Source: a virus. Taken from it: DNA of 64,000 nt. The position numbers were made by a program, and so were the translations under genes. Numbering within the stretch: the first letter of the stretch is position 1; every line of letters starts with the position of its first letter. The stretch covers positions 33,818-97,817 of the IMG/VR virus record IMGVR_UViG_3300050821_003228; one strand, given 5' to 3'. The notes below the pieces were generated by a model, which made no database searches, was not told where the DNA came from, and worked only from the letters and a program-made list of their open reading frames with translations. Positions 3,210-25,124 of this stretch are shown in pieces.

Positions 3210-3437
3210 ATGGAACGTTTTTTAACGCCCGAACAAGTTGAAAATTTGGGCATGACAGTATCAACTATGAGGCACGGCTCGTTAACCGGGCCGATGCCTA
3301 TAAACCCCGTAATTGCTTTCTATCGTGGGCCATTACCTTCAACAAGTACATTTACTGATAGTGTTGTAAATTTTTATACTGAGAATAATTTTCGTAGTCA
3401 AAGACTATTTCAGCCCCGATTGAATGGAAGTCTTTAA
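3210..3437 (+). CDS. Hypothetical protein (virion module)
   Basis: AAGGA RBS plus ATG, tightly packed with neighbours. Confidence 0.55.
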   Translation: MERFLTPEQVENLGMTVSTMRHGSLTGPMPINPVIAFYRGPLPSTSTFTDSVVNFYTENNFRSQRLFQPRLNGSL

Positions 3438-4179
3438 GGAATGCATGTTTATAACGACTAGAATAACATGGGATTTATCAGGTAAAGTTATTGAACATGA
3501 GGGCTATTTTTATTCCGGGCCGATTTCATCCCTTTGTGGCGCTTCATCGCAGCAAAATCAGATAGAGGCTCAGCAACAAGCCTATTATCAAACTTTGACA
3601 CAACAGGCGCAACAAGAATTCGGCCAAGCATCAAAAGTCTTTGATGATCTTTATGCTGCAATGAGTCCTATAGTTGCTGCTGGAATTAATCAACAAGGAT
3701 TTTCAACTGGTGAATTACAGAACTTGAATTCAATAGCTGAAACTAGTTCTGGTGAAGCTTATAGTGCGGCTGCCCAGAATGTTCGTGAACAAGAGGCCGC
3801 TGCTGGCGGAAGTAATTTCGTTCCATCGGGCGCGAATGAACAGATTAACGCTGAAGTTGCTGCTCGTGGTGCAGGACAAACGGCGGGTGAATTAAATCAG
3901 ATCGAACAGGCTAATTATGCTACTGGACGATCAAATTATCTAGCCGCTGCTGGCGATTTATCTGCTGCAACAGGAACTTATAGTACTTCAATTGGTGCAG
4001 CTAACGCCGCTACTGCGGGCGGAAATGCTGCTGCCAATACTGCCAACCAAATTGCACAAGAGAATAATTCGTGGGTCGGGGCCGTAACTGGCGCTCTTGG
4101 TGGAATCGCGGGATCAGTTGTTTCTGGTGGTATGAGTAATCTTGGTAAAGGTGTTGGATTCTTCGGACAGAACGGATAA
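3424..4179 (+). CDS. DNA ejection/pilot-like internal virion protein
   Basis: A/Q/G/N-rich helical protein with a C-terminal glycine-rich hydrophobic segment; position after the tail gene. Confidence 0.55.
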   Translation: MEVFKECMFITTRITWDLSGKVIEHEGYFYSGPISSLCGASSQQNQIEAQQQAYYQTLTQQAQQEFGQASKVFDDLYAAMSPIVAAGINQQGFSTGELQNLNSIAETSSGEAYSAAAQNVREQEAAAGGSNFVPSGANEQINAEVAARGAGQTAGELNQIEQANYATGRSNYLAAAGDLSAATGTYSTSIGAANAATAGGNAAANTANQIAQENNSWVGAVTGALGGIAGSVVSGGMSNLGKGVGFFGQNG

Positions 4180-4181
4180 AC

Positions 4182-6704
4182 ATGGCAGATACACTAAACA
4201 ACTTTAGCGGGCCAATGATGGGCGATTTTCAGCCAGCTACACTAGATAATGCCCCGTTAAATGATAGAACTGCGCCAATAACACAACAACCAGTTCCGCC
4301 TGTACCAAGTACAAATAATATTCCGGCTGTATCGCCTAAAACGGCGAATACTCCACAGCCGCCCCCTGTACATCCGGCTGTCCAAAAAGCTAGTATGGGC
4401 GCGAACATTGTGAAGGGCATTGCTGATGTATTATCTCCTCCACAATATAAGACTGAAATAAATCCTGACGGTTCTACGAAACAAACGCCAATTCCGCGCA
4501 CTCGTAAAGATGTTGGTATGTCTATTGCGTTAGCTGCATTATCAGGTGCATTTTCTGGATTAGGTCAAGTCGGCCCCGGTCATCTCGGTCGTGCTGCCGC
4601 TGCTGGATTTAATACTACGATGCAACAGAGGCAACAGGCTGATCAACAACAGAGTCAACAGGCACAGGCCGATTTTGCTCGTAAACAGGCTACAGTTTCA
4701 TTTAATATGCAACAAATGAATGCTGCATTAGACCTTGGCACTAAAGATAAGTCGTATCATGAAGATTATGTTCAAAGTTATGATCATCTTGTAAAACAAT
4801 GGTCTGAATTGCCGAATGTTGCAGATATAATTAAATTTGGAAGTCCTGATGCACCATTATCTGAGGATGAAGCCGAAGATATTAAAAAGCATTCAGTTTT
4901 TGAATTGATGCGCGTTCCTGTTAGTACTTATGAACGCCGTGACCCTAAAACTGGTAAACAAGTTTGGGTTAATAATAAGGGGGAAGTAGTTCCAGAGGGT
5001 AGTTATTCTGCTCATCCTGCTTGGGATAACGGTTACATTCTTGTTGATAAAAATGCGCCAGCAAAATTGAGTGATGAAAATGGTCCTACCCAAACGGTGA
5101 AAGATTTAGTTGCTAAATATGATGGTATAATTCCGGGTGTTAATAAATCGTTATTAGCCGGTAAGGGGGTTCAAGAACCAATACCTGCCACATCATACGG
5201 ACAAATGTTGTTTAAGGCCAACACTATTAAGTCAGCGCAAGATACGGTTAATAATTTTGTTAATACATTGAATGAAGGGGAATCTGAGAAAAATCAGATA
5301 AAACCCGTCGATTTGGTCGATGCTATTAAAAATAATAAGATTACGTTGAATGATCTTGATTTATTTCAACGAGCAATTGGCAAGTCTTCACAGGCGAATG
5401 CTACATCATTACAGACAAAACTTGATGCTGTATCAGCAAAAAATCAGGCAGCGGGAGCTAGATTAGTTGGTTTTTTTGATTCATTAACTCCTACAGGGGA
5501 AGGATTAAAAACTTTTGATCAGAAAATTCAGGCCCAAGGTAAAGCATATGTTGCAAAGTTAGAACAAGAATCTAAAGCAATGACTCCTGATGAAGCCGAA
5601 TCTATTCAGGCGAAAGCTGTCGCAGGTCAACATGTTGATCCTCACGATTTAGCTGTTGCAAACGAGTTTACTAGAATTCATACAGCAAATATTGTTAATA
5701 AAGATAAACAAGTTGAACAGGGTAAACAAGATTTAGCTGATCAACAAAATCGAAAAGTTCTTGCATATACTGAAACTCCTCCGGGCTGGGGTTTACAACA
5801 AGCACAAACTGCCGCTAGTATGCGTGATCCTTTTGCAATTGAAGAATATTTAAAGAAGAATAATGTGCCGAATGTGCCTTATCTTCATGATTTAATTTCA
5901 ATTTCACAGTACCGAGATTCATTAGATGAATTTACAAAGAGATTGACGAAAGGTACCGGACAGATGGATGAAGCTACTGCCGCAACATTCATTAATAAGT
6001 TTTTGAATCCGGGGTTCACGAAAGAAAAGTTTAGAGAAGGTAGTGCATGGTTTCAAGAACTTGGTCAAACGAAACCGGGAACTGCTGGCGGTACGATTAT
6101 GGCTGCTGGAACAGCGGCAAGACATCTTGACCATTATGGGCCGTTGTTAGAGGCGGTTAATAATGGCGATGTTCAATTATATAATAAGTTACTTACTAAT
6201 TTAGCTCAACAAACAGGTAGTACACCAATTGTACAGGCGCAGATTGTGGCTAACGCTCTATCTGCTGAAACTGAAAAGGTTATTACCGGATCAACACCTC
6301 TTGAATCAAGAATGAAGGATGCTTCACAAGGATTAAATCCGAAAGCACTTAGTAAGGATCAAGGGTTCGGGGCTATCAAAACTCTTTCAGGATTGATGAA
6401 TGATCGTTTGAATGAGTTGAATGATAAGAATATGGCTCTTTATGGAACGCCATTGAATTTGATTAGCCCACATACAACTCAATTTATGAAGAAACTCGGA
6501 TTTGAGACTTCATGGGATCAAAAGAGCGAACAACAGAGACAACAAGAAACTAATCAACAGAAGCAGCAGAAGCTTCAAGCTATTACACTTCCGGGCGGTG
6601 GTCATCCGGTTGATATAAAGTATAAAGGTAATACCACGATTGTTTCAGATGGTCATCAATGGATAGATTTAGCAACTGGTAAACCTTACGTTGCTCAGAA
6701 ATAG
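4182..6704 (+). CDS. Large internal virion/ejection protein
   Basis: 840-aa Q/A-rich helical ORF in the ejection-protein cluster. Confidence 0.5.
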   Translation: MADTLNNFSGPMMGDFQPATLDNAPLNDRTAPITQQPVPPVPSTNNIPAVSPKTANTPQPPPVHPAVQKASMGANIVKGIADVLSPPQYKTEINPDGSTKQTPIPRTRKDVGMSIALAALSGAFSGLGQVGPGHLGRAAAAGFNTTMQQRQQADQQQSQQAQADFARKQATVSFNMQQMNAALDLGTKDKSYHEDYVQSYDHLVKQWSELPNVADIIKFGSPDAPLSEDEAEDIKKHSVFELMRVPVSTYERRDPKTGKQVWVNNKGEVVPEGSYSAHPAWDNGYILVDKNAPAKLSDENGPTQTVKDLVAKYDGIIPGVNKSLLAGKGVQEPIPATSYGQMLFKANTIKSAQDTVNNFVNTLNEGESEKNQIKPVDLVDAIKNNKITLNDLDLFQRAIGKSSQANATSLQTKLDAVSAKNQAAGARLVGFFDSLTPTGEGLKTFDQKIQAQGKAYVAKLEQESKAMTPDEAESIQAKAVAGQHVDPHDLAVANEFTRIHTANIVNKDKQVEQGKQDLADQQNRKVLAYTETPPGWGLQQAQTAASMRDPFAIEEYLKKNNVPNVPYLHDLISISQYRDSLDEFTKRLTKGTGQMDEATAATFINKFLNPGFTKEKFREGSAWFQELGQTKPGTAGGTIMAAGTAARHLDHYGPLLEAVNNGDVQLYNKLLTNLAQQTGSTPIVQAQIVANALSAETEKVITGSTPLESRMKDASQGLNPKALSKDQGFGAIKTLSGLMNDRLNELNDKNMALYGTPLNLISPHTTQFMKKLGFETSWDQKSEQQRQQETNQQKQQKLQAITLPGGGHPVDIKYKGNTTIVSDGHQWIDLATGKPYVAQK

Positions 6705-10221: not shown

Positions 10222-10614
10222 ATGTTAGCTAGAGAAGTAGTTTATGGTGGATTAACTCGGGAAGATAATTATGCTCAAGGGTGGTCAAAAGGAAAAAAGA
10301 GTTTAGACAATCTTGTACCAGATCATATGGTGTCTAGACGTACCGGACATGCTTTTACAGAAATGGATTGGATTGTATTTGCGGAAAAGTATCTAAATGA
10401 AGCAAAAAGGGCGTATTCAGATTTTTGTCCCGATATTCGTACAGTTCATGTCCGTATGTTGAAGGCGGCATCACTTTTAGTTTCTGGTTTACAGTGTAAT
10501 GCTGAGGAAGTGGAGAGTATTAGTGGTATTTCTAGTAATAAATTTCCCTTACGGCAAGATGGTGGTGGGTTACAATCTTTTTTAAAATCTGATATAAAGC
10601 AGGACGGTGTTTAA
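10222..10614 (+). CDS. Hypothetical protein, possibly all-alpha NTP pyrophosphatase-like
   Basis: GGAGG RBS; DW..F.EKYL.EA...MLK.A.L pattern; translationally coupled to the DUF5664 gene. Confidence 0.4.
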   Translation: MLAREVVYGGLTREDNYAQGWSKGKKSLDNLVPDHMVSRRTGHAFTEMDWIVFAEKYLNEAKRAYSDFCPDIRTVHVRMLKAASLLVSGLQCNAEEVESISGISSNKFPLRQDGGGLQSFLKSDIKQDGV

Positions 10615-11063
10615 TGTCTGCTTATAGACGAAAAGTAAAGTTAAATATTCCCGCTTTGAAGGCAAGTATTTCTGTATTAGATAAACACGTTAATGGTAAA
10701 GAAGTTGATCCAAAAGGACTTGATCCTAAGACACAAGGGGCAAAATTGGATTTAGGAAAGCCGCCCGTTTTTCAAGGCGTGTTAAGTTATTTTCCTAAGG
10801 CATTGAATGCGGTATCTCTCGTTTCTTTAGCGGGCGCTAAGAAGTATCATTGGAAGGGATGGGAGAAGGTAGAAGACGGGTTTAACCGCTACAGTGATGC
10901 GCTTGGTCGCCATCTGCTGAAAGAATCGTATGAATTATATGATGATGTAGACGATAATGGTAATGAAGGAACGCATTTGCTTCACGCAGCGCAAGTTGCG
11001 TGGAACTCACTCAGTCGGTTAGAATTTCTATTACGCGAACACAAAGTCAGCAGTCAAGGATAA
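10614..11063 (+). CDS. dATP/dGTP diphosphohydrolase (DUF5664-like)
   Basis: K.D.GKPP...GAKKY...W..V.DG..RY.DAL.RH...LH...AWN.L..L signature. Confidence 0.8.
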   Translation: MSAYRRKVKLNIPALKASISVLDKHVNGKEVDPKGLDPKTQGAKLDLGKPPVFQGVLSYFPKALNAVSLVSLAGAKKYHWKGWEKVEDGFNRYSDALGRHLLKESYELYDDVDDNGNEGTHLLHAAQVAWNSLSRLEFLLREHKVSSQG

Positions 11064-11065: not shown

Positions 11066-11305
11066 ATGTGGCGTTCATTTAAGGTGTTTACTGTAGGCAT
11101 TTCTTGGTTATTGGCGATGTTGTTTTTCGTCATTTCCCTTTACCTTGGTACACACGGCTTTCTCTTTGCTGGTGGATTGATTTTATTCTTTGGTGTTGGA
11201 TTGTGGTGTTTTTCTCGGGCACTTGAACAGGATTTAGTTAGAGAATCGGGCGATAAAGATGATGATGATCAAAATCCTACTACAACGATATATAAATTCG
11301 CTTGA
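11066..11305 (+). CDS. Small membrane protein (two TM helices)
   Basis: Two hydrophobic segments and an acidic tail. Confidence 0.6.
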   Translation: MWRSFKVFTVGISWLLAMLFFVISLYLGTHGFLFAGGLILFFGVGLWCFSRALEQDLVRESGDKDDDDQNPTTTIYKFA

Positions 11306-11330
11306 CAATCGGGCGGTAATGGGGTATAAT
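11302..11330 (+). promoter_or_regulatory. Sigma70-type promoter driving tRNA array 1
   Basis: TTGACA-17 nt-TATAAT, with TCGGGCG in the spacer. Confidence 0.8.
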
Positions 11331-11367
11331 TAATTATGATAGGTACAGAGTGGTTGTAGGTTTATGT

Positions 11368-11444
11368 TGTTTTGTCGTATAATTTGATAGTATGTCGCTC
11401 TGTTAAAGCGAAAGGTGCAGGTTTGAATCCTACCGAAACAGCCA
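11368..11444 (+). tRNA. tRNA-Asn(GTT)
   Basis: Cloverleaf; anticodon arm TCGCT-ctGTTaa-AGCGA; ends GCCA. Confidence 0.85.
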
Positions 11445-11468
11445 AGTTGTTGATTGTAAAATATTTAC

Positions 11469-11551
11469 GGGCCGGACACCGAACGGTTTTGGTAGCAATC
11501 TGTTAAATTGCCGCGTAAGCATAGTTGGTTCGACCCCAACCCGGTTCGCCA
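11469..11551 (+). tRNA. tRNA with GTT (Asn) anticodon and a long variable arm
   Basis: GGGCCGG/CCGGTTC acceptor; GCAAT-ctGTTaa-ATTGC; 12-nt variable region; TTCGA T-loop; GCCA. Confidence 0.8.
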
Positions 11552-11695
11552 TTTTAGTTAGTGTCTTTATCTTAAACAGTAATGTTTACTCCGAATTTAA
11601 AAGCGTGTTAATCGGGCCTTAACCCGAATGATTGTTAAGGTGGTCGGGAGGCTTTTCACTACACCGATGCTCTGAGAAAGCGTCAGTGAAAGCAA

Positions 11696-12037
11696 TTGCC
11701 ATACAAAGATGAAGGGTTACAAAAACTTGCTCAACATGAGCATTATTTAAGAAATAAAAAGTATTTTAAAGAAAGAACAAGATTAAGACGAAAACAGCAA
11801 AGAGCATGGTTTCAGGAATTAAAATCAAAATTGGTTTGTAGTAATTGTCCTGAACCTGATTCAATATGCCTAGATTTTCATCATCTTGATCCTAAAGATA
11901 AGAGCGATACTGTTTCAAAATTGGCAGCAGAATTACGAAATAAAGAAATAATTTTAAAAGAAATTGCTAAATGTATTGTTCTATGCTCTAATTGTCATAG
12001 AAAATTACATAGAGATGAATATCAGCCTGTTGGGTAA
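11696..12037 (+). CDS. HNH endonuclease
   Basis: C..C...LDFHH.DP...EI.KC..LC.NCHR..H. Confidence 0.85.
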   Translation: MPYKDEGLQKLAQHEHYLRNKKYFKERTRLRRKQQRAWFQELKSKLVCSNCPEPDSICLDFHHLDPKDKSDTVSKLAAELRNKEIILKEIAKCIVLCSNCHRKLHRDEYQPVG

Positions 12038-12097
12038 TGGTAACCCCCAATCCTCGGACGATTGTATATGCAGATTCGACTTCTGTCAGGCTGACCA
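12023..12097 (+). tRNA. tRNA-Pro(CGG)
   Basis: CAGCCTG/CAGGCTG acceptor; CAATC-ctCGGac-GATTG; ACCA. Confidence 0.85.
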
Positions 12098-12098
12098 T

Positions 12099-12185
12099 AC
12101 GGGTGTAAAACGGTAGTTGGGAGCCGTCTCGCTTTGGAAGCGAGAGATAAGATCACTAGAGGTCCGAATCCTCTCACCCGTACCA
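12099..12185 (+). tRNA. tRNA-Pro(TGG) with enlarged D and variable regions
   Basis: ACGGGTG/CACCCGT acceptor; CTCGC-ttTGGaa-GCGAG; ACCA. Confidence 0.75.
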
Positions 12186-12372
12186 TTTTCATAATGATCC
12201 TTGAATTGACAAGGTTCTACCGGTTATGATAAACTGGCATTATGTTTGATAAAAGTATACAAACTGAATTAGAAGATTTGTGGAAGAAATTGAATCCATA
12301 TCCAGAAGGAAGTTACAAATGGTATGGATGGAGTTTAGAAGTAGATTGCGAGAATTATCAATTTGATAACAC

Positions 12373-12448
12373 GGACAGTGAGCTAGTTAGGTAATAGCGT
12401 TCGGTTGAAGCCCGAAAGAACGGGGATCGTTACCTCGACTGTCCACCA
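12373..12448 (+). tRNA. tRNA-Phe(GAA)
   Basis: GGACAGT/ACTGTCC acceptor; TTCGG-ttGAAgc-CCGAA; ACCA. Confidence 0.85.
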
Positions 12449-12466
12449 TGTTTAAAAGGAAAAAAA

Positions 12467-12658
12467 TTGCTACAAATTTTAATAGTTTTAATTGTTGTAG
12501 GCGTTTTGTTGTGGTTAGTTAATACATACATCCCGATGGATGGTAAGATTAAGACGATTTTAAATGTTGTAGTAGTCATCTGTGTTGTTCTTTGGTTATT
12601 GAACGTTTTCGGTGTGCTCGGAATGGATGTGCCCGTTCCGCGTGTTCATCGTTATTAA
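12467..12658 (+). CDS. Thivi_2564-like small membrane protein
   Basis: LIVVGVLLWLVNTYIPMD..IK.ILNVVVVI.VVLWLL pattern. Confidence 0.7.
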   Translation: MLQILIVLIVVGVLLWLVNTYIPMDGKIKTILNVVVVICVVLWLLNVFGVLGMDVPVPRVHRY

Positions 12659-12660
12659 GG

Positions 12661-12863
12661 TTTTGATGGGAAGTTGGCTTAGAAGCAGCCATCTTTTAAA
12701 GAGTAGCACTGAACGTGGAACCACTTAAAAAATAGGGCACTCAATTTTAAAACCTATTTGATCCTATACAGGCGGTATAGGTTGAGGACAGTCCCGTATT
12801 GAGCGTTTCTCAGGACGGCCATTTGGCCGATAACACTTTTGGCGTAATAGCACACCATCAAAA
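12661..12863 (+). ncRNA. 23S rRNA GTPase-associated-centre (uL11-binding, H43-H44) mimic RNA with a 137-nt insert
   Basis: GGAAGTTGGCTTAGAAGCAGCCATCTTTTAAAGAG (12669-12703) and GCGTAATAGCACAC (12842-12855) match the conserved 23S 1055-1104 region. Closed by TTTTGATGG/CCATCAAAA. Confidence 0.85.
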
Positions 12864-12870
12864 AGTTTAT

Positions 12871-12958
12871 GCATTGGTTGGGCTAATGGTAGCCTCGCGC
12901 TCTGTAAAAGCGCCTCTCTTAGCGAGAATAGTGAGTTCAATTCTCACCCAATGCACCA
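12871..12958 (+). tRNA. tRNA-Tyr(GTA)
   Basis: GCATTGG/CCAATGC acceptor; GCGCT-ctGTAaa-AGCGC; long variable arm; ACCA. Confidence 0.9.
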
Positions 12959-12973
12959 TTTTAGGAGGAATGA

Positions 12974-13288
12974 TTGAAAGTAAAATTTGAACCGGCACCT
13001 AATAAAGTCCTTGTACGTGTGGCCGATCCTGTAACTATTACGAAAAACGGAATACATGTTCCAGATTCGGCCCAGATGAGGCCAATGGAGGGCGTCATAG
13101 TTAAAATCGGGCCAAATAGTGATACAGTGGATAAACTGACTAAGGGTGTTGTTCATGTCGAACCTCTTTGGAAAGAGAAGGATCACGTTCTATTCGGTAA
13201 GTATGACGGTATTGAAATCAGGATAGATGAAGAGGATTTCCTTCTTTTAAATCATGATCAGATTTTAGGTAAAAGGACAGGCAATTAG
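12974..13288 (+). CDS. groES: Co-chaperonin GroES
   Basis: P..NKVLV...T.NGI.VPDSA....EG.IV.IGP...V.FGKY.G.EI..D.E.FL.L....ILG; GGAGG RBS. Confidence 0.9.
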   Translation: MKVKFEPAPNKVLVRVADPVTITKNGIHVPDSAQMRPMEGVIVKIGPNSDTVDKLTKGVVHVEPLWKEKDHVLFGKYDGIEIRIDEEDFLLLNHDQILGKRTGN

Positions 13289-13352
13289 TTAATTGACATA
13301 ACCTTCGGCCCTGAACCGAAAAAAGAACGTTTGATTCGTTCATTGCCTACCA
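13279..13352 (+). tRNA. tRNA-Gln(CTG), C33 variant
   Basis: AGGCAAT/ATTGCCT acceptor; GTTA/TAAC D-stem; TTCGG-ccCTGaa-CCGAA; GAACG/CGTTC T-stem; ACCA. Confidence 0.7.
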
Positions 13353-13353
13353 C

Positions 13354-13429
13354 GGTGCGGTAGTTTAACTGTTAAAATGCTTTCCTGTCACGAAAGACGA
13401 TGCGGGTTAGAATCCCGTCGGCACCGCCA
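13354..13429 (+). tRNA. tRNA-Asp(GTC)
   Basis: CTTTC-ctGTCac-GAAAG; GCCA end. Confidence 0.9.
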
Positions 13430-13437
13430 TAATTTAG

Positions 13438-13466
13438 TTGACAAAATGGTTTAAAAATAGTAAGAT
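13438..13466 (+). promoter_or_regulatory. Sigma70-type promoter of the Ro60 operon
   Basis: TTGACA-17 nt-TAAGAT; predicted TSS about 13473, the start of Y-like element 1. Confidence 0.7.
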
Positions 13467-13472
13467 TGATCT

Positions 13473-13537
13473 TGACGTGGTGAAGAGTAGAGTTACTTCT
13501 CGATTAGAAAAAACACTCTACTCGTTTGTTCCCGTCA
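13473..13537 (+). ncRNA. Y-RNA-like element 1 (5' leader of the Ro60 gene)
   Basis: TGACG-TGGTG-AA-GAGTAGAG-T-TACTTC-loop-CTCTACTC-GTTTGTTCC-CGTCA; scaffold shared with three downstream copies. Confidence 0.7.
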
Positions 13538-13558
13538 TTTAATTTTCTCGGAGGAGAT

Positions 13559-14947
13559 ATGTCGTCAGTCAATACAGCTACAAAGACAGCAAAATATACG
13601 CATGAAGGCGCGAAGGCGTCTAATATTACGAAGAAACAAGAGCTTCGCCGTAGTGTTACAGCTTGTATGCTTTGGGAGAACACCTTCTATGAAGATGGAA
13701 AGGCGATTGCTGACCGTATCAAGGAATTAGTTCATCAGCTTCCCGGCCAATTTGTTTCAGAATTGGCAATTGAAGCGCGTGAGAAGATGAAACTTCGTCA
13801 CGTTCCGCTGTTCCTAGTTCGTGAATTGGCCCGTCATCCTAAGAAGGCTGAACGACAGTTTGTATCAGATACATTGGCCCGAGTAATTCAACGTCCTGAT
13901 GAATTGACTGAGTATATTGCAATTTATTGGAAAGACGGTAAAGAACCGTTGTCTGCTCAATCCAAACTTGGATTAGCAAAAGCGTTTCTGAAGTTTAACG
14001 AATATAGCTTTGCTAAGTACACCCGTGATGGCGCTGTGAAGCTTCGTGACGCATTGTTCTTATCCCACGCAAAGCCGGGCACGAAGGAACAAGAGAAACT
14101 GTTCAAGAAGATCGTAGATAACACTCTTGTTACTCCTGATACTTGGGAAGTCGCACTTTCAGGTGGGGCCGATAAGAAAGAGACGTTTACTCGATTGCTG
14201 AAAGAGGGCAAGCTTGGTGCATTGGCTCTATTGCGTAATCTACGTAACATGAGTGAAGCCGGGGTATCAACCGAGTTAGTTACAGAGTCATTAGAGAATT
14301 TGGATGTCATTCGCGTACTGCCGTTTAGATTTATTTCTGCCGCGAAGTATGCTCCACAACTTGAATCAGTTCTAGAGAAGACAATGTTTAAAGCGTTGGA
14401 AAGTCATCCTGAATTGCCGGGCAAAACTGTAATGATTGTTGATGTCTCTGGCTCAATGGGCGGCAATGTTTCTGGTAAGTCAGAAATTGGACGAGTTGAT
14501 GCTGCTGCATCTTTAGCAATTCTTCTTCGTGAAATTTGTGAAGATTTTTCAATTTATGCAACAGCGGGTAATGATTATAGTCGTATTCATAAAACGGCAT
14601 TGATTCCTTCACGTCATGGTTTTGCACTGAAAGATTCAATTTTGAAGTCCAAAAATGAATTGGGTGGTGGGGGAATATTTTTGAAACAAGTTATGGATTA
14701 TGTTTATAACTTGGAAAAAAGCAATGATGTCGCTCGTATCATAGTAATTACTGATGAACAAGATTGTGATACTGATCCGGCTAAATCGCCGTCAAAAGCA
14801 AATACGTTTGGTGCTAATAATTATCTGATAAATATAGCTAATGAGAAAAATGGCATTGGCTATGATAAATGGGTTCATATTGATGGTTTTTCTGAAGCAG
14901 TAATAGATTACATTCAAGCCTTTGAAGATCAAGGCGATGAAGATTAA
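13559..14947 (+). CDS. rsr: Ro60/Rsr-like TROVE domain RNA-binding protein with vWA domain
   Basis: L.E..FYE.G, IQRPDELTE, F.EY..AKY, TWE..LS, ALLRNLRN, LPFRF..A, vWA DVSGSM and ITDEQ motifs; GGAGGA RBS before ATG 13559. Confidence 0.92.
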   Translation: MSSVNTATKTAKYTHEGAKASNITKKQELRRSVTACMLWENTFYEDGKAIADRIKELVHQLPGQFVSELAIEAREKMKLRHVPLFLVRELARHPKKAERQFVSDTLARVIQRPDELTEYIAIYWKDGKEPLSAQSKLGLAKAFLKFNEYSFAKYTRDGAVKLRDALFLSHAKPGTKEQEKLFKKIVDNTLVTPDTWEVALSGGADKKETFTRLLKEGKLGALALLRNLRNMSEAGVSTELVTESLENLDVIRVLPFRFISAAKYAPQLESVLEKTMFKALESHPELPGKTVMIVDVSGSMGGNVSGKSEIGRVDAAASLAILLREICEDFSIYATAGNDYSRIHKTALIPSRHGFALKDSILKSKNELGGGGIFLKQVMDYVYNLEKSNDVARIIVITDEQDCDTDPAKSPSKANTFGANNYLINIANEKNGIGYDKWVHIDGFSEAVIDYIQAFEDQGDED

Positions 14948-14996
14948 AACGTATGAAGCGGATTAACCGCTGATTTCAAGTTACCGCTTCGCAAGT

Positions 14997-15086
14997 TTGC
15001 GTGGTGATAGGTTGTAGTTACTTCTTACTGAAAAAAAGGAAGTTGGGTGAAATCCCCGACATACCTGCAATCGCATGTTCCCGCAA
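14997..15086 (+). ncRNA. Y-RNA-like element 2
   Basis: TTGCG-TGGTG-ATA-GGTTGTAG-T-TACTTC...CTGCAATC-GCATGTTCC-CGCAA; internal T-arm-like GTTGGG-TGAAATC-CCCGAC. Confidence 0.75.
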
Positions 15087-15161
15087 TTAATTTAGAGTGT
15101 AGACGCACGATAAAATGTTAAGGTTTTACGGTAGTCCTTGAAATAAACCGTCTAAGTTTAT

Positions 15162-15271
15162 TTGTGATGGCGTAGAATGCAGATACTTCTCTTACTTAAA
15201 GAGACTGTGTGGTTCGATTCCATAAGTAAGGATGGTTCCTAGTCATTTCTGTAATCGCTTGTTCCTCACAA
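15162..15271 (+). ncRNA. Y-RNA-like element 3 (tRNA-mimic domain, YrlA-like)
   Basis: TTGTGA-TGGCG-TAG-AATGCAGA-TACTTC...TCTGTAATC-GCTTGTTCC-TCACAA; contains TGTGG-TTCGATT-CCATA T-arm. Confidence 0.75.
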
Positions 15272-15319
15272 TTATTTGTGTTATAATCACTATAGTAAAT
15301 TCAATTAAAGGATAACAAA

Positions 15320-16120
15320 TTGAGCAAAGTATTGGATGCTGCTACAAAGCTTGTAACTAAAGAGGAAGCTGAAACTGAAAAATTATTGAGTGAAGCGGCA
15401 TTGCGTCGTTTTCGTCTTGAATCGGAGAGAAAGAATGGCCCGAAAGAAGATGAACTGATTCTTGCCCGTCGTCAGGCTGAAGTTGAAAAAATTAAGAATG
15501 AGTCTCAGAAGGCCCACTTTGAAGCGGCCTGTGCGGAATTGATTTTCAATAACGCAAAACGTGAAGAAGATAAGATTCTGACTGGCGACCGTTATAACAA
15601 AGTTTATCGCTTTGTTCATGAAGTTTGTCATGAATCTGTCGCTGACTGTATGATGATTCTTTCTCGTTGGTCGCGTCTTGAGCCGGAATGTGCGATGGAA
15701 ATCGTATTCTGTTCGCCCGGTGGAAGCATTATTGACGGTTTCGCTCTTTTCGATTTTATCCAAGATTTGAAAGCAAAGGGCCATAAGGTCACTACAAAAT
15801 CAATCGGTTATGCTGCAAGTATGGCAGGTGTATTGTTACAGGCCGGAAGTGATCGAGTGATGGGCCGTGAATCGTGGCTTTTGATTCATGAAGCTTCATT
15901 CTTTGCGATGGGTAAAATCGGCGCGGTTGATGATACGGTTGAATGGATCAAAAGGATGTGTGATCGTATTGTAGACATTTTCGCTGAACGTGCATCCGAG
16001 AAAACTGGAAAATCAGTAAAGGCAATTCGGGCAACAATTAAAAAGAATTGGCTTCGTAAAGATTGGTGGCTTTCTGCTGACGAGGCGCTAGAGTACGGTT
16101 TTTGTGATCGTATTAGTTAG
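15320..16120 (+). CDS. ClpP-family serine protease with N-terminal coiled coil
   Basis: SPGGS..DG, GYAASMA (Ser), LIHE (His), DWWLSA.EALEYG.CDRI (Asp). Confidence 0.85.
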   Translation: MSKVLDAATKLVTKEEAETEKLLSEAALRRFRLESERKNGPKEDELILARRQAEVEKIKNESQKAHFEAACAELIFNNAKREEDKILTGDRYNKVYRFVHEVCHESVADCMMILSRWSRLEPECAMEIVFCSPGGSIIDGFALFDFIQDLKAKGHKVTTKSIGYAASMAGVLLQAGSDRVMGRESWLLIHEASFFAMGKIGAVDDTVEWIKRMCDRIVDIFAERASEKTGKSVKAIRATIKKNWLRKDWWLSADEALEYGFCDRIS

Positions 16121-16128
16121 GAGAGAAT

Positions 16129-16338
16129 ATGTCAGTTAATGAAGCAATAATGTTTATACATCCGCTAGATTTTGTAAGAATGCTGAATCATCGTGATGGT
16201 CCGATTGATATTATATTTCGGAAATTACACGGTCTTCAGGTGAATGAAGTTAATGGTGTAATATATTATCAAACGGTTGAAGTGCCAGAAACGCTTCAAG
16301 ATGCAGAACCGGCCAACTGTTGGCCGTATAAATTTTAA
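16129..16338 (+). CDS. Hypothetical protein
   Basis: AGGAG RBS plus ATG. Confidence 0.6.
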   Translation: MSVNEAIMFIHPLDFVRMLNHRDGPIDIIFRKLHGLQVNEVNGVIYYQTVEVPETLQDAEPANCWPYKF

Positions 16339-16341
16339 AGT

Positions 16342-16437
16342 TTGTAGTGGTGATTGATAGAGATACTTCAAGGTGAAAGTTGACTAATACTCAACGTGCT
16401 GTCGAAAGCACAAGCCTCTGTCGCTTGTTCCCTACAA
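16342..16437 (+). ncRNA. Y-RNA-like element 4
   Basis: TTGTAG-TGGTG-ATT-GATAGAG-A-TACTTC...CTCTGTC-GCTTGTTCC-CTACAA; two internal hairpins. Confidence 0.75.
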
Positions 16438-16446
16438 TTAAGTTTT

Positions 16447-16521
16447 GCCCGTATCGTCTAAAGATAAGGCCCACGCCCGATTAGCGTGAGATGATCGGTT
16501 TAATTCCGACTACGGGTACCA
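16447..16521 (+). tRNA. tRNA-Ile(GAT), C33 variant
   Basis: GCCCGTA/TACGGGT acceptor; CACGC-ccGATta-GCGTG; ACCA. Confidence 0.8.
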
Positions 16522-16523
16522 AT

Positions 16524-16598
16524 GCTCGGCTAGTAGAGTGGCTATAACACTTCTCCTACAAAGAAGAGAGCAAGGTTCGATTCCTTGGCTGAGTACCA
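16524..16598 (+). tRNA. tRNA-Val(TAC), C33 variant
   Basis: GCTCGGC/GCTGAGT acceptor; CTTCT-ccTACaa-AGAAG; TTCGA T-loop; ACCA. Confidence 0.85.
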
Positions 16599-16606
16599 TT
16601 TTTATT

Positions 16607-16926
16607 GAGGCAATAACTCGGCACCTGACTGAATAAGGATTGCCAGTCCTCAAAGTATGGGATAGCTAACCGAGAGGTTACTATTCTAGTTGTTGCGTAA
16701 TCGCTACATAAAGGTCTAAATAGTGGCTCTAGATCGAGAGCCATGACGTAAGGACACGACAAATCGTCTATTATACATAGAGATGGCTGTATCGTGCTGT
16801 GAGTAACCATACTCACCAGACATTAACTGTTAGAGTAATTACCTAACAGGTCTGTGACCGAATAATGAGGCGTTTACTGCGAACTTATGGGTATTCTCAA
16901 ATCCCATGATGCTGAGTTATTGCCTC
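16607..16926 (+). ncRNA. Large (about 320 nt) structured ncRNA of unknown class
   Basis: 17-bp closing helix GAGGCAATAACTCGGCA/TGCTGAGTTATTGCCTC and at least 7 internal hairpins; lies between two tRNAs with no credible sense ORF. Confidence 0.7.
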
Positions 16927-16929
16927 TAT

Positions 16930-17005
16930 ACCGGGATCGTTCAACATCCGAGGACGGTTGCCTTTGAAGCAATTTATCTAGGTTGGAATCCTAGTTCCGG
17001 TGCCA
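16930..17005 (+). tRNA. tRNA-Gln(TTG)
   Basis: ACCGGGA/TTCCGGT acceptor; GTTGC-ctTTGaa-GCAAT; GCCA. Confidence 0.85.
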
Positions 17006-17042
17006 TTTTTCACAAGGCATTGTTTAAAAGTGCGACGGGAGC

Positions 17043-17072
17043 GCGGCTCGGATTAATTTCCGGGCCGTTTTT
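17043..17072 (+). terminator. Rho-independent terminator ending array 1
   Basis: GCGGCTCGGA/TCCGGGCCGT hairpin followed by a T-run. Confidence 0.75.
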
Positions 17073-23437: not shown

Positions 23438-23513
23438 GGGCTTATAGCTCATTCAGGAGAGCGCCTGTCTTGCAAACAGGAGGCGACCGGGGCGGAACCG
23501 GTTAAGTCCACCA
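23438..23513 (+). tRNA. tRNA-Ala(TGC)
   Basis: G3:U70 pair; CCTGT-ctTGCaa-ACAGG; ACCA. Confidence 0.9.
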
Positions 23514-23518
23514 TTTTT

Positions 23519-23593
23519 GAGGCTAGGGTATGACTGGCGGTGCCACAGGTTTCCACCCTGTAGAGTCCGATTCGATTTCGGATAGCCTCTCCA
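23519..23593 (+). tRNA. tRNA-Gly(TCC)
   Basis: GAGGCTA/TAGCCTC acceptor; ACAGG-ttTCCac-CCTGT; TCCA. Confidence 0.8.
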
Positions 23594-23597
23594 TTTT

Positions 23598-23672
23598 GGG
23601 CGCGCACCTTCTGGTGAAGGCTCAAGTTTGTGAAGCTTGTAGAAATACATTCGATTTGTAGCGTGCCCTCCA
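23598..23672 (+). tRNA. tRNA-His(GTG), atypical
   Basis: GGGCGCG/CGTGCCC acceptor; CAAGT-ttGTGaa-GCTTG; TCCA; no encoded G-1:C73. Confidence 0.7.
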
Positions 23673-23677
23673 TTTTT

Positions 23678-23753
23678 GGATATGTCGTATAAAGATAAAT
23701 ACTCTGTTTTCGTAAAACAGCTAATGTCGGCTCAATCCCGGCCATATCCTCCA
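23678..23753 (+). tRNA. tRNA-Thr(CGT)
   Basis: GGATATG/CATATCC acceptor; CTGTT-ttCGTaa-AACAG; TCCA. Confidence 0.8.
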
Positions 23754-23828
23754 GTAGATATAATATAATGGCTATTATAATTTCTTGGTAAGAAATTTAT
23801 ATGCGTTCGATTCGCATTATCGGCTCCA
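23754..23828 (+). tRNA. tRNA-Thr(GGT)
   Basis: ATTTC-ttGGTaa-GAAAT; TTCGA T-loop; one acceptor mismatch; TCCA. Confidence 0.75.
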
Positions 23829-23829
23829 T

Positions 23830-23903
23830 GCACTTGTAGCATAATGAAATGCCCCATACTTGTAATATGGCTTATGTCGGCCCATTGCCGATCAAGTGCT
23901 CCA
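23830..23903 (+). tRNA. tRNA-Thr(TGT) with divergent T-loop
   Basis: GCACTTG/CAAGTGC acceptor; CCATA-ctTGTaa-TATGG; T-loop CCCATTG; TCCA. Confidence 0.75.
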
Positions 23904-23911
23904 TTTTTATT

Positions 23912-23986
23912 GCGGGAATAGCTCAGAGGCAGAGCACAACATTGCCAATGTTGAGGTCGCGGTTTCAACATCCGTTTCCCGCTCCA
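23912..23986 (+). tRNA. tRNA-Gly(GCC)
   Basis: GCGGGAA/TTCCCGC acceptor; CAACA-ttGCCaa-TGTTG; TCCA. Confidence 0.9.
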
Positions 23987-23987
23987 T

Positions 23988-24064
23988 ATGCCGTTGGCGA
24001 AGAGGTCAAACGCGGAAAGCTACAACCTTTCTAATCAGGGGTTCGACTCCCTTACGGCATTCCA
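23988..24064 (+). tRNA. tRNA-Cys(ACA), rare A34 anticodon
   Basis: ATGCCGT/ACGGCAT acceptor; GAAAG-ctACAac-CTTTC; TTCGA T-loop; U73 discriminator plus CCA. Confidence 0.8.
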
Positions 24065-24151
24065 TTTTTATGTTTGAATTTATATTAATGATTTTAGCTA
24101 ATTTGGCCCATAGAATCGGGCCGGAATATCCTAATTATAAACAAGATTAAT

Positions 24152-24225
24152 AGGTGATTGATGTAATGGAAGCATGACAGTCTCCAAAACTGTTCGTAAG
24201 GGTTCAAGTCCTTTATCATCTGCCA
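24152..24225 (+). tRNA. tRNA-Trp(CCA)
   Basis: ACAGT-ctCCAaa-ACTGT; GCCA. Confidence 0.9.
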
Positions 24226-24228
24226 TTT

Positions 24229-24369
24229 ATGGGCAAAGCTAATAAAATGCCTTATGTACCGACAGAATGGGCTAAACATCTTCGCCCGTTTCTGAAACGG
24301 CTGTTCTGGAAGAAAGTTCGCCGTAAAACGAAAGAATTGACAAATCGAGTAAAGGATGATATAAGTTAA
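24229..24369 (+). CDS. Small basic protein (46 aa), below the ORF-track cutoff
   Basis: MGKANKMPYVPTEWAKHLRPFLKRLFWKKVRRKTKELTNRVKDDIS fills the gap between tRNA-Trp and the HNH gene. Confidence 0.45.
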   Translation: MGKANKMPYVPTEWAKHLRPFLKRLFWKKVRRKTKELTNRVKDDIS

Positions 24370-24371
24370 AT

Positions 24372-24878
24372 ATGCAAGACTGTTTAGTGGTGGATTCAAC
24401 ACATCGGCCCATCGCTTACTGCTCTTGGATGGAAGCGGTCAAACTTTATTATGAAGGTGTAGCGGACATTATTAAAGAGGATGCTGAGAAAGAAATACAC
24501 TCGCCCTCTGTAACAATGAAGGTTCCAAGAGTTATAGCAATTAGGAATTACGTCTCGAAGAGATTCGGGCGCGATACTATAACACTTACAAGACGTAATA
24601 TTGCTATCCGTGATGAACGAAAATGTCAGTACTGCGGGCTGGAATTAAGTAATGATGAACAAACGCTTGATCACGTTATTCCCCGTTCTCGCGGCGGCAA
24701 GAGTTCATGGGATAACCTTATATTATGTTGCAAGCCATGTAACCGCTTAAAGGCAGATTTAACTGTTGAAGAAGCAGGAATGAAATTGTTAAGCATTCCA
24801 AAGAAACCCAAACCGGGAGTGCAGTACCGAGGAATCGGGCACGTTAGACCGGAATGGGCCGATTACGAGAGGAATTAG
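24372..24878 (+). CDS. HNH endonuclease (McrA/HNH_5-like)
   Basis: RRNI..RD...CQYCG.....TLDHVIPRSRGG...WDNL..CC..CN..K. Confidence 0.9.
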   Translation: MQDCLVVDSTHRPIAYCSWMEAVKLYYEGVADIIKEDAEKEIHSPSVTMKVPRVIAIRNYVSKRFGRDTITLTRRNIAIRDERKCQYCGLELSNDEQTLDHVIPRSRGGKSSWDNLILCCKPCNRLKADLTVEEAGMKLLSIPKKPKPGVQYRGIGHVRPEWADYERN

Positions 24879-24952
24879 GCTGTTTAGCTCAAAGATGGAG
24901 CAAGCGTCTCATTAACGCAAGGCTATTGGTTTAAATCCAATAACAGCCACCA
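24878..24952 (+). tRNA. tRNA-CAT (Met or Ile2)
   Basis: GGCTGTT/AACAGCC acceptor; GCGT-ctCATta-ACGC; ACCA. Confidence 0.8.
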
Positions 24953-25124
24953 AGTCGGGCCGGGGAGAGAGGTTAAATGGGAACTATGCCTATTCTCACA
25001 AGTGATTCCCACAACGGTCCATCAATTTTTGAGTAGCCCACATTGCTGAGGCAAGGCCAGCCCAAAGATAAACGGAAGAGAAAGCACCACAGCCTAGCGC
25101 CGTTTCTCAAAAACCAATTTTTAT

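What the first reader, a model, noticed from the sequence alone, without database searches (positions are those of the whole stretch)
11302..17072. Locus-level hypothesis: a translation-protection island of tRNAs, rRNA mimic, Ro60-Y RNPs, large ncRNA, GroES and ClpP
Seen: one co-oriented unit from promoter 11302 to terminator 17043 holds 11 tRNAs, the GAC mimic, Ro60 with four Y-like RNAs, the 320-nt RNA, GroES and a ClpP-like protease. Inference: an RNA-decoy counter-defence module that mimics both tRNA and rRNA targets and supplies RNA and protein quality control. Ro60 might also bind the GAC mimic, since eukaryotic Ro60 binds misfolded 5S rRNA.
Basis: inference. Interest (0 to 1): 0.7.

Follow-up and report, generated by a model that had tools for sequence, protein, structure and literature searches.

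The report
Phage tRNA array packed with RNA mimics

Summary
The inventory is confirmed. Window 11302-17072 (+) holds 11 tRNA or tRNA-like genes, a split copy of the 23S rRNA GTPase-associated centre (GAC), Ro60 with exactly four Y-like RNAs, a strongly folded 320-nt RNA, GroES and a ClpP-like protein.

It is not one transcription unit. Three consensus promoters of the phage's own type lie inside it.

Only some links recur across phages:
- Ro60 with Y-handle RNAs is near universal: 169 model hits in related loci, all on the Ro60 strand.
- Ro60 with tRNA arrays: 18/40 loci, against 2/33 control loci.
- GAC RNA with tRNAs: 71/119 within 1 kb, all co-oriented.
- GAC with Ro60 is rare: 3/50 and 0/17 contigs.
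- GroES sits beside Ro60 only in the two nearest relatives.
- The ClpP-like gene is never linked to the other parts.
- The 320-nt RNA has no homologue, but stands at 126x in a soil metatranscriptome against 2-5x for neighbouring genes.

One unrelated phage (L114) assembled a parallel RNA island: tRNAs, GAC mimic, Ro60 with Y RNAs, tmRNA and GOLLD.

Best reading: a modular structured-RNA cluster on a tRNA array, with passenger protein genes. This scan had already noted the GAC mimic and Ro60-handle RNAs on other DNA.

The parts
11302..11330 (+). Promoter P1 (TTGACA-17-TATAAT)
   Evidence: 12/12 consensus match. One of 14 TTGACAA-type sites in the window against 2.8 expected.
11368..11444 (+). 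tRNA-Asn (GTT)
   Evidence: ARAGORN; Rfam 49.9 bits.
11469..11551 (+). tRNA-like gene with GTT anticodon loop, long variable arm and CCA end
   Evidence: Rfam tRNA-Sec model 28.2 bits, below cut-off. Folds as a cloverleaf. The L192 orthologue scores 40.4 bits as tRNA.
11696..12037 (+). HNH homing endonuclease (mobile passenger)
   Evidence: PHROG HNH families at E 6e-22. Absent from the syntenic relative L192.
12023..12097 (+). tRNA-Pro (CGG)
12100..12188 (+). tRNA-Pro(TGG)-like gene with long variable region
   Evidence: Rfam 26.4 bits. Folds as a cloverleaf. ARAGORN calls the L192 orthologue tRNA-Pro(tgg), 88 nt.
12206..12235 (+). Internal promoter P2
   Evidence: 10/12 match with a TG extension.
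12242..12394 (+). 50-aa ORF of unknown function
   Evidence: Conserved in L192 (64% over 28 aa). No family match.
12373..12448 (+). tRNA-Phe (GAA)
12467..12658 (+). 63-aa hydrophobic ORF (two apolar stretches)
   Evidence: Translation. Absent from L192. No family match.
12661..12863 (+). GAC-mimic RNA: 23S 1051-1089 and 1090-1108 equivalents around a 137-nt insert
   Evidence: Rfam LSU hit. Fold z = -3.1. A family of at least 69 distinct viral sequences with a covarying closing stem. Ends 8 nt before tRNA-Tyr.
12871..12958 (+). tRNA-Tyr (GTA)
12974..13288 (+). GroES (Cpn10) co-chaperonin
   Evidence: Pfam 9e-17 over the full length; PHROG 3188. The phage has no GroEL.
13279..13352 (+). tRNA-Gln (CTG)
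13354..13429 (+). tRNA-Asp (GTC)
13438..13466 (+). Internal promoter P3, directly before Y1 and Ro60
   Evidence: 10/12 match. The same type of site sits at the same place in L192, 1564-1592.
13470..13543 (+). Y1: minimal Y-like handle RNA, also the Ro60 leader
   Evidence: Model R1, 77.5 bits. Fold z = -2.9.
13559..14947 (+). Ro60 (TROVE + vWA, DVSGS MIDAS motif)
   Evidence: Pfam; PHROG 850 at 3e-44; PDB 9KOP/9L5Y at E 5e-25 over the full length.
14994..15092 (+). Y2: handle plus T-arm-like hairpin
   Evidence: R1, 76.5 bits; fold.
15160..15276 (+). Y3: handle plus tRNA-like cargo (GGTTCGATTCC T-arm)
   Evidence: R1, 73.3 bits. The L141 orthologue gives a sub-threshold Rfam YrlA hit, 32.9 bits.
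15320..16120 (+). ClpP-like serine peptidase with a 110-aa N-terminal extension
   Evidence: Pfam 8e-22. PDB ClpP matches start at ClpP residue ~51. Best isolated-phage homologues are annotated 'ClpP-like protease'.
16129..16338 (+). 69-aa ORF of unknown function
   Evidence: ORF list. No family match.
16340..16442 (+). Y4: handle plus non-tRNA hairpins
   Evidence: R1, 58.4 bits. Fold z = -2.4.
16447..16518 (+). tRNA-like gene with an atypical CCGATTA anticodon loop (GAT)
   Evidence: Rfam tRNA 34.4 bits, above the cut-off of 29. Not called by ARAGORN. Fold.
16524..16598 (+). tRNA-Val (TAC)
16607..16926 (+). Orphan 320-nt multibranched RNA closed by a 17-bp helix
   Evidence: MFE z = -8.2. 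No Rfam match and no sequence homologue. Exact RNA-library contigs at depth 126 and 8 against 2-5 for neighbouring genes.
16930..17005 (+). tRNA-Gln (TTG)
17043..17068 (+). Intrinsic terminator
   Evidence: 10-bp stem with 7 GC pairs, then a T run.

Best explanation
The stretch is the middle one of three tRNA gene clusters of a complete 97.8-kb soil phage. It serves as an expression and processing platform for structured RNAs.

At least three host-type promoters (11302, 12206, 13438) drive co-oriented transcripts. Host tRNA-maturation enzymes cutting at the tRNA borders would release the embedded non-tRNA RNAs. These are the GAC-mimic RNA (8 nt from tRNA-Tyr), Y4 (4 nt from a tRNA-like gene) and the 320-nt RNA (8 and 3 nt from its flanking tRNAs).

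Two modules are evolutionarily real:
1. Ro60 with an array of Y-like 'handle' RNAs. By analogy with Rsr-YrlA and phiLo Ro60-Yrl, these form RNPs that can recruit host PNPase.
2. A free-standing copy of the uL11/translation-factor site of 23S rRNA.

Both have repeatedly settled in phage tRNA arrays but do not depend on each other.

The tRNAs, together with the other two clusters, give a near-complete phage-owned set covering 18 amino acids. That set buffers translation against codon mismatch or host tRNA depletion or cleavage.

GroES (acting with host GroEL), the ClpP-like peptidase, the HNH endonuclease and the small ORFs are lineage-specific passengers, not parts of an RNA-decoy machine.

Shown: the anatomy, the conservation and co-occurrence patterns, and accumulation of the 320-nt RNA. 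Inferred: processing by RNase P/Z, Ro60-handle binding, and any protective role.
For: - Parts and borders.
- Several promoters of the phage's own type lie inside the stretch. P3 is conserved in L192.
- The handle model R1 has 17 pairs, 13 with compensatory changes. It hits only the four window copies in this genome. It gives 48 + 121 hits in other Ro60 loci, every one on the Ro60 strand and mostly within about 1.5 kb of the gene (a few up to about 8 kb away).
- Ro60 loci: 18/40 have a tRNA within 2 kb, and 150/151 tRNAs are co-oriented. ClpP-like loci: 2/33. Fisher p = 2e-4, indicative only.
- GAC RNA: 71/119 sites lie within 1 kb of a tRNA, 71/71 on the same strand. The closing helix shows four or more pair types at three positions.
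- L192 (Ro60 85% identical) keeps the order tRNAs, ORF50, tRNA-Phe, GAC, tRNA-Tyr, GroES, tRNA-Gln, Y1, Ro60. It lacks the HNH gene and the 63-aa ORF.
- L114 shows an independent RNA island.
- RNA-library contigs identical to the phage cover the 320-nt RNA at depth 126 (X2) and 8 (X3, another study), against 2-5 for Ro60 and ClpP pieces.
- Literature: YrlA-like RNAs beside Ro60 in 22 phages (PMC4201824). Phage Ro60 binds phage Yrl RNAs and host PNPase (PMC12135203). Phage tRNAs with RNA-repair genes and TROVE have been proposed as counter-measures to attacks on translation (PMC7824862).
Against: - No transcript ends, processing sites or binding data exist for this phage. Contig depth is a poor measure of expression, and the tRNAs, Y1-Y3 and the GAC insert were not covered in the RNA runs.
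- Co-location in tRNA arrays could reflect recombination hot spots, since HNH genes are present, rather than shared processing or function.
- The Y-like RNAs do not match Rfam YrlA in the window. Their 5' motif (GGYGWWG) differs from the published GNCGAA(N)G.
- Co-occurrence counts come from related, non-independent metagenomic contigs, many of them incomplete.
- GroES-Ro60 adjacency does persist down to 64% Ro60 identity (L141), so a local functional link in this clade is not excluded.
Confidence: 0.62

Rival explanations
1. The whole stretch is one dedicated counter-defence island. tRNAs, tRNA-like and rRNA-like decoys absorb host nucleases or toxins aimed at the translation apparatus, and Ro60-Y RNPs, GroES and ClpP clear damaged RNA and protein. 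The parts cooperate and are selected together.
For: - All parts touch translation or quality control and are co-oriented within 5.8 kb.
- Three tRNA-like genes have odd long arms or an atypical anticodon loop, as decoys or nuclease-resistant variants might.
- The 5' half keeps its order in L192 and L141.
- L114 repeats the RNA guild, and the phage also carries a tmRNA.
- In Salmonella, rsr-yrlBA sits in the rtcBA RNA-repair operon, which is induced by damaged tRNAs (PMC7790460).
- The counter-defence idea for phage tRNAs with TROVE is already in print (PMC7824862).
Against: - GroES is beside Ro60 in only 2/86 loci and the ClpP-like gene in 0/86.
- None of 38 ClpP-like loci has Ro60, GroES or GAC.
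- In five complete GAC phages, ClpP and Cpn10 are present in 2/5 and lie 18-235 kb from the GAC RNA. In five complete Ro60 phages the figures are ClpP 1/5, Cpn10 2/5 and GAC 0/5.
- The closest complete relative by Ro60 (L016 genome, 109 kb) has no GAC core and no ClpP.
- Three internal promoters.
- Two thirds of the phage's tRNAs and its tmRNA lie outside the stretch.
- No RNA ligase in the genome.
- The classical role of phage GroES-type proteins, from textbook knowledge of T4 gp31, is capsid folding with host GroEL.
Confidence: 0.13
2. An accretion zone without shared logic. tRNA clusters are recombination and homing-endonuclease hot spots where unrelated accessory genes and RNAs pile up. 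Co-orientation only reflects the long one-directional gene block of this genome.
For: - HNH endonucleases occur here and in the next tRNA cluster, and in L114, L001 and L016.
- The HNH gene and the 63-aa ORF are indels relative to L192.
- Genes on both sides of the stretch (about window 159-34038) share its strand.
- The content of Ro60 and GAC neighbourhoods varies widely.
Against: - 71/71 GAC RNAs and 150/151 tRNAs beside Ro60 share the strand of their neighbour.
- The non-tRNA RNAs abut tRNAs within 3-9 nt.
- The same kinds of RNA recur in unrelated phages.
Together these point to a shared expression and processing logic, not pure accident.
Confidence: 0.2

Closest known systems
Ro60 (Rsr)-Y RNA particles of bacteria and phages: Salmonella and mycobacteriophage YrlA/YrlB (PMC4201824); Thermus phage phiLo Ro60 with Yrl1/Yrl2 and host PNPase (PMC12135203; PDB 9KOP, 9L5Y)
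   Same: - A TROVE + vWA ring protein that aligns over its full length to phiLo Ro60.
- Several small RNAs on the same strand right beside the gene, whose 5' and 3' ends pair into a conserved stem.
- One RNA carries a tRNA-like T-arm, as YrlA does.
   Different: - The window RNAs do not reach Rfam YrlA.
- The handle motif is GGYGWWG ... UACUUC ... CGNWUGUUCC, not GNCGAA(N)G.
- There are four copies with different cargo. One is the leader of the Ro60 mRNA.
- No rtcBA genes accompany them.
Phage tRNA gene clusters seen as supply or counter-defence against tRNA-targeting host systems (jumbo-phage survey PMC7824862; T4/T5-type examples from my own knowledge)
   Same: - A co-oriented tRNA array with encoded CCA ends.
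- Interspersed HNH endonucleases.
- A near-complete phage tRNA set across three clusters.
   Different: Here the array also carries rRNA-mimic, Y-like and large orphan RNAs. Three tRNA-like genes have long variable arms or an atypical anticodon loop. No RNA ligase or kinase repair genes were found.
GTPase-associated centre of bacterial 23S rRNA (top of H42, H43, H44; E. coli 1051-1108, the uL11- and thiostrepton-binding domain)
   Same: - 12665-12703 and 12841-12859 reproduce both halves, including the two conserved loops.
- The Rfam LSU model aligns there.
- The closing helix and the base of H43 covary across 69 phage sequences.
   Different: - It stands alone, closed on itself.
- It is split by a 137-nt insert (0-331 nt across the family).
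- It is encoded by phages next to tRNAs.
- It matches no dedicated Rfam 15 family (only the LSU rRNA model), and four literature searches found no paper describing it.
GOLLD and ROOL large ornate RNAs of phages, often beside tRNA genes (Rfam RF02032; association with tRNAs from my own knowledge)
   Same: The 320-nt RNA is a large, multibranched, end-closed RNA wedged between two tRNAs and abundant as RNA. L114 carries a GOLLD-like RNA in the equivalent setting.
   Different: It matches neither GOLLD, ROOL nor any other Rfam family, is smaller, and has no detectable relatives.
Phage co-chaperonins (T4 gp31, phage GroES homologues) and accessory ClpP-like proteases of cluster E mycobacteriophages
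   Same: GroES is a full-length Cpn10 with no phage GroEL. The ClpP-like protein is 40% identical to proteins annotated 'ClpP-like protease' near 60 kb of 75-kb mycobacteriophage genomes.
   Different: There is no evidence that either acts on the RNA modules. The ClpP-like protein lacks the first ~50 ClpP residues and has a 110-aa extension.

Membership tests
Ro60 / TROVE family | TROVE (HEAT-repeat ring) domain followed by a vWA domain with a MIDAS motif | tested here: met
   PF05731 at E 1.5e-14. VWA_2 scores 23.8 bits, just under Pfam's cut-off of 27. Alignment over residues 9-456 to phiLo Ro60 9KOP/9L5Y, E 5e-25. A DVSGS motif is visible in the sequence.
Y RNA (Ro60 partner RNAs) | Encoded beside Ro60 on the same strand, with 5' and 3' ends paired into a conserved stem | tested here: met
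   Four copies flank Ro60. 13 of 17 handle pairs show compensatory changes. 169 hits in other Ro60 loci, all on the Ro60 strand.
Y RNA (Ro60 partner RNAs) | Physical binding to Ro60 | not testable with these tools
   Needs pull-down, CLIP or EMSA.
YrlA (Rfam RF02553) | Match to the YrlA covariance model (tRNA-like T, AS and D arms plus the GNCGAA(N)G motif) | tested here: not met
   No YrlA hit in the window even in a 381-nt search at E up to 10. Only the L141 orthologue of Y3 scores, at 32.9 bits against a cut-off of 69.
Phage GAC-mimic RNA family | Both halves of 23S 1051-1108 with the two conserved loops, closed by their own covarying helix | tested here: met
   1051:1108 pairs in 67/69 sequences using UA, AU, GC, CG and GU.
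Phage GAC-mimic RNA family | Binds uL11, translation GTPases or a GAC-directed toxin | not testable with these tools
ClpP (MEROPS S14) protease | ClpP fold with a Ser-His-Asp triad | tested here: inconclusive
   PF00574 at 8e-22. S167, H190 and D248 are invariant among 13 homologues, in ClpP-like motif contexts. I made no explicit alignment to a characterised ClpP.
ClpP (MEROPS S14) protease | N-terminal axial loops and head region used for gating and ATPase docking | tested here: not met
   All PDB ClpP matches begin at ClpP residue ~33-60. The first 100-125 residues of the query are an unrelated extension.
GroES / Cpn10 | Full-length Cpn10 domain | tested here: met
   Residues 4-100 against profile positions 1-92 of 93, E 9e-17.
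Single operon (promoter 11302 to terminator 17043) | One promoter and no internal start or stop signals | tested here: not met
   Internal promoters at 12206 and 13438 of the phage's own consensus type, and terminator-like hairpins at 11612 and 16310. This is a sequence prediction only.
Conserved multi-gene island (counter-defence module) | The components co-occur across unrelated genomes more than by chance | tested here: not met
   Met only for three pairs: Ro60 with Y RNAs, Ro60 with tRNAs, and GAC with tRNAs. Not met for GroES, ClpP-like, Ro60 with GAC, or the 320-nt RNA.

The most novel reading that the evidence does not exclude
Phage tRNA arrays may host a recurrent, modular guild of translation-related structured RNAs. 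The members would be tRNAs, long-armed tRNA look-alikes, Ro60-bound handle RNAs, a free-standing copy of the ribosome's GTPase-associated centre, tmRNA, and large ornate RNAs, including this orphan 320-nt RNA that accumulates strongly in soil metatranscriptomes. Members would be drawn in different combinations but act together to keep, or take over, translation when the host attacks its own translation apparatus. The window and L114 would be two convergent full sets.
Probability: 0.2. Interest if true: 0.75.

Novelty: new variant of a known kind. Interest (0 to 1): 0.45.

Why it matters
Phage tRNA clusters are usually annotated as tRNAs plus 'hypothetical' gaps. This locus shows how much else such a cluster can hold:
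- a Ro60 particle with four partner RNAs;
- an apparently undescribed imitation of a ribosomal functional centre;
- an abundant orphan 320-nt RNA.

The comparison across about 250 loci separates the links that evolution keeps from those that are accidents of one lineage. The kept links are Ro60 with handle RNAs, and both RNA modules with tRNA arrays. The lineage-specific ones are GroES and ClpP.

This narrows experiments to the RNA guild. It also argues against treating the whole stretch as one defence-type island.

Tried and rejected
The 96-101-kb contigs that hold the closest ClpP-like homologues (P0005, P0011) could not be fetched. Synteny of the 3' half (ClpP-like, orf69, Y4, 320-nt RNA) in near relatives is therefore untested.
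- Close-relative scans of IMG/VR with the ClpP-like and GroES proteins found nothing useful.
- The 320-nt RNA gave no hit by nhmmer in about 250 fetched loci, by blastn in 50,697 phage records, or in five complete Ro60 phages. It has no internal repeats, is not RNase P RNA and matches no Rfam family.
- RNA runs X2 and X3 gave no contigs over the tRNAs, Y1-Y3 or the GAC insert. The huge depth at 12669-12704 comes from other organisms' real 23S rRNA. Neither says anything about expression of those parts.
- I considered the ClpP-like protein as a head-maturation protease. PHROG_94 matches at 1e-49, and no protease was recognised among three of the ORFs between the portal and major head genes. Its nearest isolated-phage homologues are annotated 'ClpP-like protease' far from the left end of the genome, and two homologous loci showed no capsid neighbours. 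The question is unresolved.
- Four literature searches for a described phage GAC mimic found none.
- I did not run complex prediction for ClpP-like with the AAA+ protein, because that pairing is not part of the claim.

Full report
**What the DNA is.** The window is part of a complete 97.8-kb virus record with direct terminal repeats, 40.6% G+C. It encodes a large terminase, a portal and a major head protein at genome 19.5-27 kb. It occurs in soil metagenomes and metatranscriptomes. ARAGORN finds 27 tRNAs in three clusters, at genome 5.7-7.0 kb, 45.2-50.8 kb (this finding) and 57.3-59.4 kb. Together they cover 18 amino acids without overlap between clusters. A permuted tmRNA lies beside the first cluster (Rfam RF04321, 65 bits against a cut-off of 47).

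**Checking the inventory.**
- tRNAs: eight are called by ARAGORN. Rfam adds 16447-16518 (34.4 bits) and two sub-threshold tRNA-like genes at 11469 and 12102.
- All three extra genes fold as cloverleaves with CCA ends. The first two have long variable arms. The third has an atypical CCGAUUA anticodon loop. The orthologues of the first two in relative L192 pass tRNA thresholds.
- Pfam gives TROVE (plus a sub-threshold vWA match) for 13559-14947, Cpn10 for 12974-13288 and CLP_protease for 15320-16120.
- Ro60 aligns end to end with the solved Ro60 of Thermus phage phiLo (E 5e-25).
- The Rfam LSU model matches 12669-12709.
- A sibling note (e1-6050734) pointed to a second half at 12841-12859. I confirmed it in the sequence, in the fold and across the family.
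- The 320-nt RNA folds at -116.6 kcal/mol, z = -8.2.

**Is it one unit?** It is co-oriented, but so are the genes on both sides of it (about window 159-34038). The phage uses a clear TTGACAA-N16-17-TAnnnT promoter type, with 14 sites in the window against 2.8 expected. Three of them lie in the stretch, at 11302, 12206 and 13438. The third sits directly before Y1 and Ro60, and the same type of site is present at the same place in the nearest relative. Terminator-like hairpins lie at 11612 and 16310. The stretch is therefore most likely several transcription units.

**The Ro60-Y module is real and conserved.**
- The four Y-like RNAs share a handle: 5' GUGGYG..., UACUUC, ...CGNWUGUUCC 3'. The two ends of the handle pair.
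- In an alignment with three copies from other phages, 13 of 17 pairs show compensatory changes.
- A covariance model of the handle finds exactly these four in the window and none elsewhere in the genome.
- It finds 48 hits in 19 viral Ro60 loci and 121 hits in 45 of 59 metagenome Ro60 loci. Every hit is on the Ro60 strand, and most lie within about 1.5 kb of the gene.
- Y3 carries a GGUUCGAUUCC T-arm, and its L141 orthologue gives a sub-threshold Rfam YrlA hit. The window copies themselves do not reach YrlA.

This fits the published picture. YrlA-like RNAs lie beside Ro60 in 22 phages (PMC4201824). Phage Ro60 binds two phage Yrl RNAs and host PNPase (PMC12135203).

**The GAC mimic is a member of a large phage RNA family.**
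- 72 of 109 unique sites also have the 3' half, YUUUGGCGUAAYAGCACAC, at 60-344 nt.
- The closing helix pairs in 58-67 of 69 sequences, with four or more pair types at three positions. Shifted controls pair in 9-25 of 69 at those three positions (50 of 69 at a fourth).
- The RNA is unannotated in isolated phages such as XacN1, GAP32, CBB, RSP15 and Aeromonas phage 4_4572.
- It matches no Rfam family other than the LSU rRNA model, and four literature searches found no paper describing it.

Earlier reports of this scan reached the same view on other genomes.

- Ro60 loci with at least 6 kb of flank: 18 of 40 have a tRNA within 2 kb, and 150 of 151 tRNAs are on the Ro60 strand. For ClpP-like loci, used as a control set, the figure is 2 of 33.
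- GAC sites: 71 of 119 lie within 1 kb of a tRNA, all 71 on the same strand.
- GAC with Ro60: within loci, only L114 and L192. On whole contigs, TROVE is in 3 of 50 GAC contigs (1 of 20 complete) and the related DUF2828 in 8 of 50. The GAC core is in 0 of 17 Ro60 contigs.
- GroES: next to Ro60 only in L192 (Ro60 85% identical) and L141 (64%), and in none of the other 84 Ro60 loci.
- ClpP-like: in no Ro60 locus. None of 38 ClpP-like loci has Ro60, GroES or a true GAC core.
- Five complete GAC phages and five complete Ro60 phages have ClpP or Cpn10 only sporadically and far away.
- The 320-nt RNA has no relative anywhere I could search.

**Near relatives.** L192 keeps the order tRNA-Asn, Asn-like, Pro, long Pro, ORF50, Phe, GAC RNA, Tyr, GroES, Gln, Y1, Ro60. 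It lacks the HNH gene and the 63-aa hydrophobic ORF. This is ordinary synteny between close relatives, with mobile insertions.

**A convergent case.** L114 comes from an unrelated phage (Ro60 53% identical). On one strand within 12 kb it carries 22 tRNAs, a GOLLD-like RNA (138 bits), a GAC mimic, a tmRNA (113 bits), three handle RNAs, Ro60 and HNH genes. The protein side (GroES, ClpP) has none.

**Expression.** Two soil metatranscriptomes from different studies hold contigs identical to the phage. The contigs over the 320-nt RNA stand at depth 126 and 8. Those over Ro60, ClpP-like, orf69 and Y4/tRNA stand at 2-5. Contig depth is a crude measure, but DNA carry-over cannot explain a 25- to 50-fold step within one genome. 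I read this as accumulation of a stable RNA.

**The proteins.**
- GroES has no phage GroEL and must use the host's. From textbook knowledge of T4 gp31, the established use is capsid folding.
- The ClpP-like protein lacks the ClpP N-terminal region and carries a 110-aa extension. PHROGs labels its family 'head maturation protease'. Its nearest isolated-phage homologues are annotated 'ClpP-like protease'.
- A Clp/Hsp100-type AAA+ protein with a GGGIGF loop lies 19 kb away on the other strand.
- The genome has no RtcB, Rnl2-type ligase, SmpB or CCA-adding enzyme.

**Verdict.** The stretch is best seen as a modular structured-RNA cluster built on a tRNA array, with conserved sub-modules and lineage-specific protein passengers. 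The counter-defence framing is already in the literature for phage tRNAs, RNA-repair genes and TROVE (PMC7824862), and it remains untested here.

Noticed in passing
L137:7493-7769 (- strand; genome coordinates, outside the window): The phage encodes a permuted (two-piece type) tmRNA beside its first tRNA cluster: Rfam RF04321 at 65 bits against a cut-off of 47. ARAGORN also calls it. The genome has no SmpB. Permuted tmRNAs, and the nearest isolated-phage Ro60 relatives (Brevundimonas and Caulobacter phages), hint at an alphaproteobacterial host.
   Followed up: partly
window 34777-35784 (- strand): A 335-aa single-ring Clp/Hsp100 D2-like AAA+ ATPase (AAA_2 + ClpB_D2-small) with a GGGIGF loop. 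It is a possible unfoldase partner for the ClpP-like peptidase at 15320-16120.
   Followed up: partly
L114:2891-14685 (- strand): An unrelated IMG/VR phage carries on one strand 22 tRNAs, a GOLLD-like RNA (13244-13747), a GAC mimic (core 11352-11367), a tmRNA (5489-5882), three Y-handle RNAs (4768-5247), Ro60 (3282-4586) and HNH genes. This is a convergent RNA island.
   Followed up: partly
window 11469-11551 and 12100-12188; L192:310-396 and 493-580; L114:12993-13090: tRNA genes for Asn and Pro with long variable arms (83-98 nt) recur next to ordinary isoacceptors in different phages. Long arms are normally limited to Leu, Ser and Tyr tRNAs.
   Followed up: partly
window 23438-25603: A second tRNA cluster in the window holds 12 genes, including one that ARAGORN reads as Cys with an ACA anticodon. 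It has its own TTGACAA-type promoters (22353, 23008, 23173) and an HNH endonuclease (24372-24878).
   Followed up: no
L247:2333-3055 (Xanthomonas phage XacN1): In XacN1 the GAC mimic lies just downstream of a gene annotated as 2'-5' RNA ligase (a 2H phosphoesterase). No tRNA is annotated within 3 kb.
   Followed up: no
L192:1669-1853: The nearest relative has about 185 extra bases between its Y1 copy and the Ro60 start that the window lacks. Their content was not examined.
   Followed up: no
window 36754-37476 (- strand) and 10614-11063 (+ strand): The phage encodes a PP2C-type protein phosphatase and a protein with a dATP/dGTP diphosphohydrolase N-terminal domain. The latter ends just upstream of the tRNA region.
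   Followed up: no
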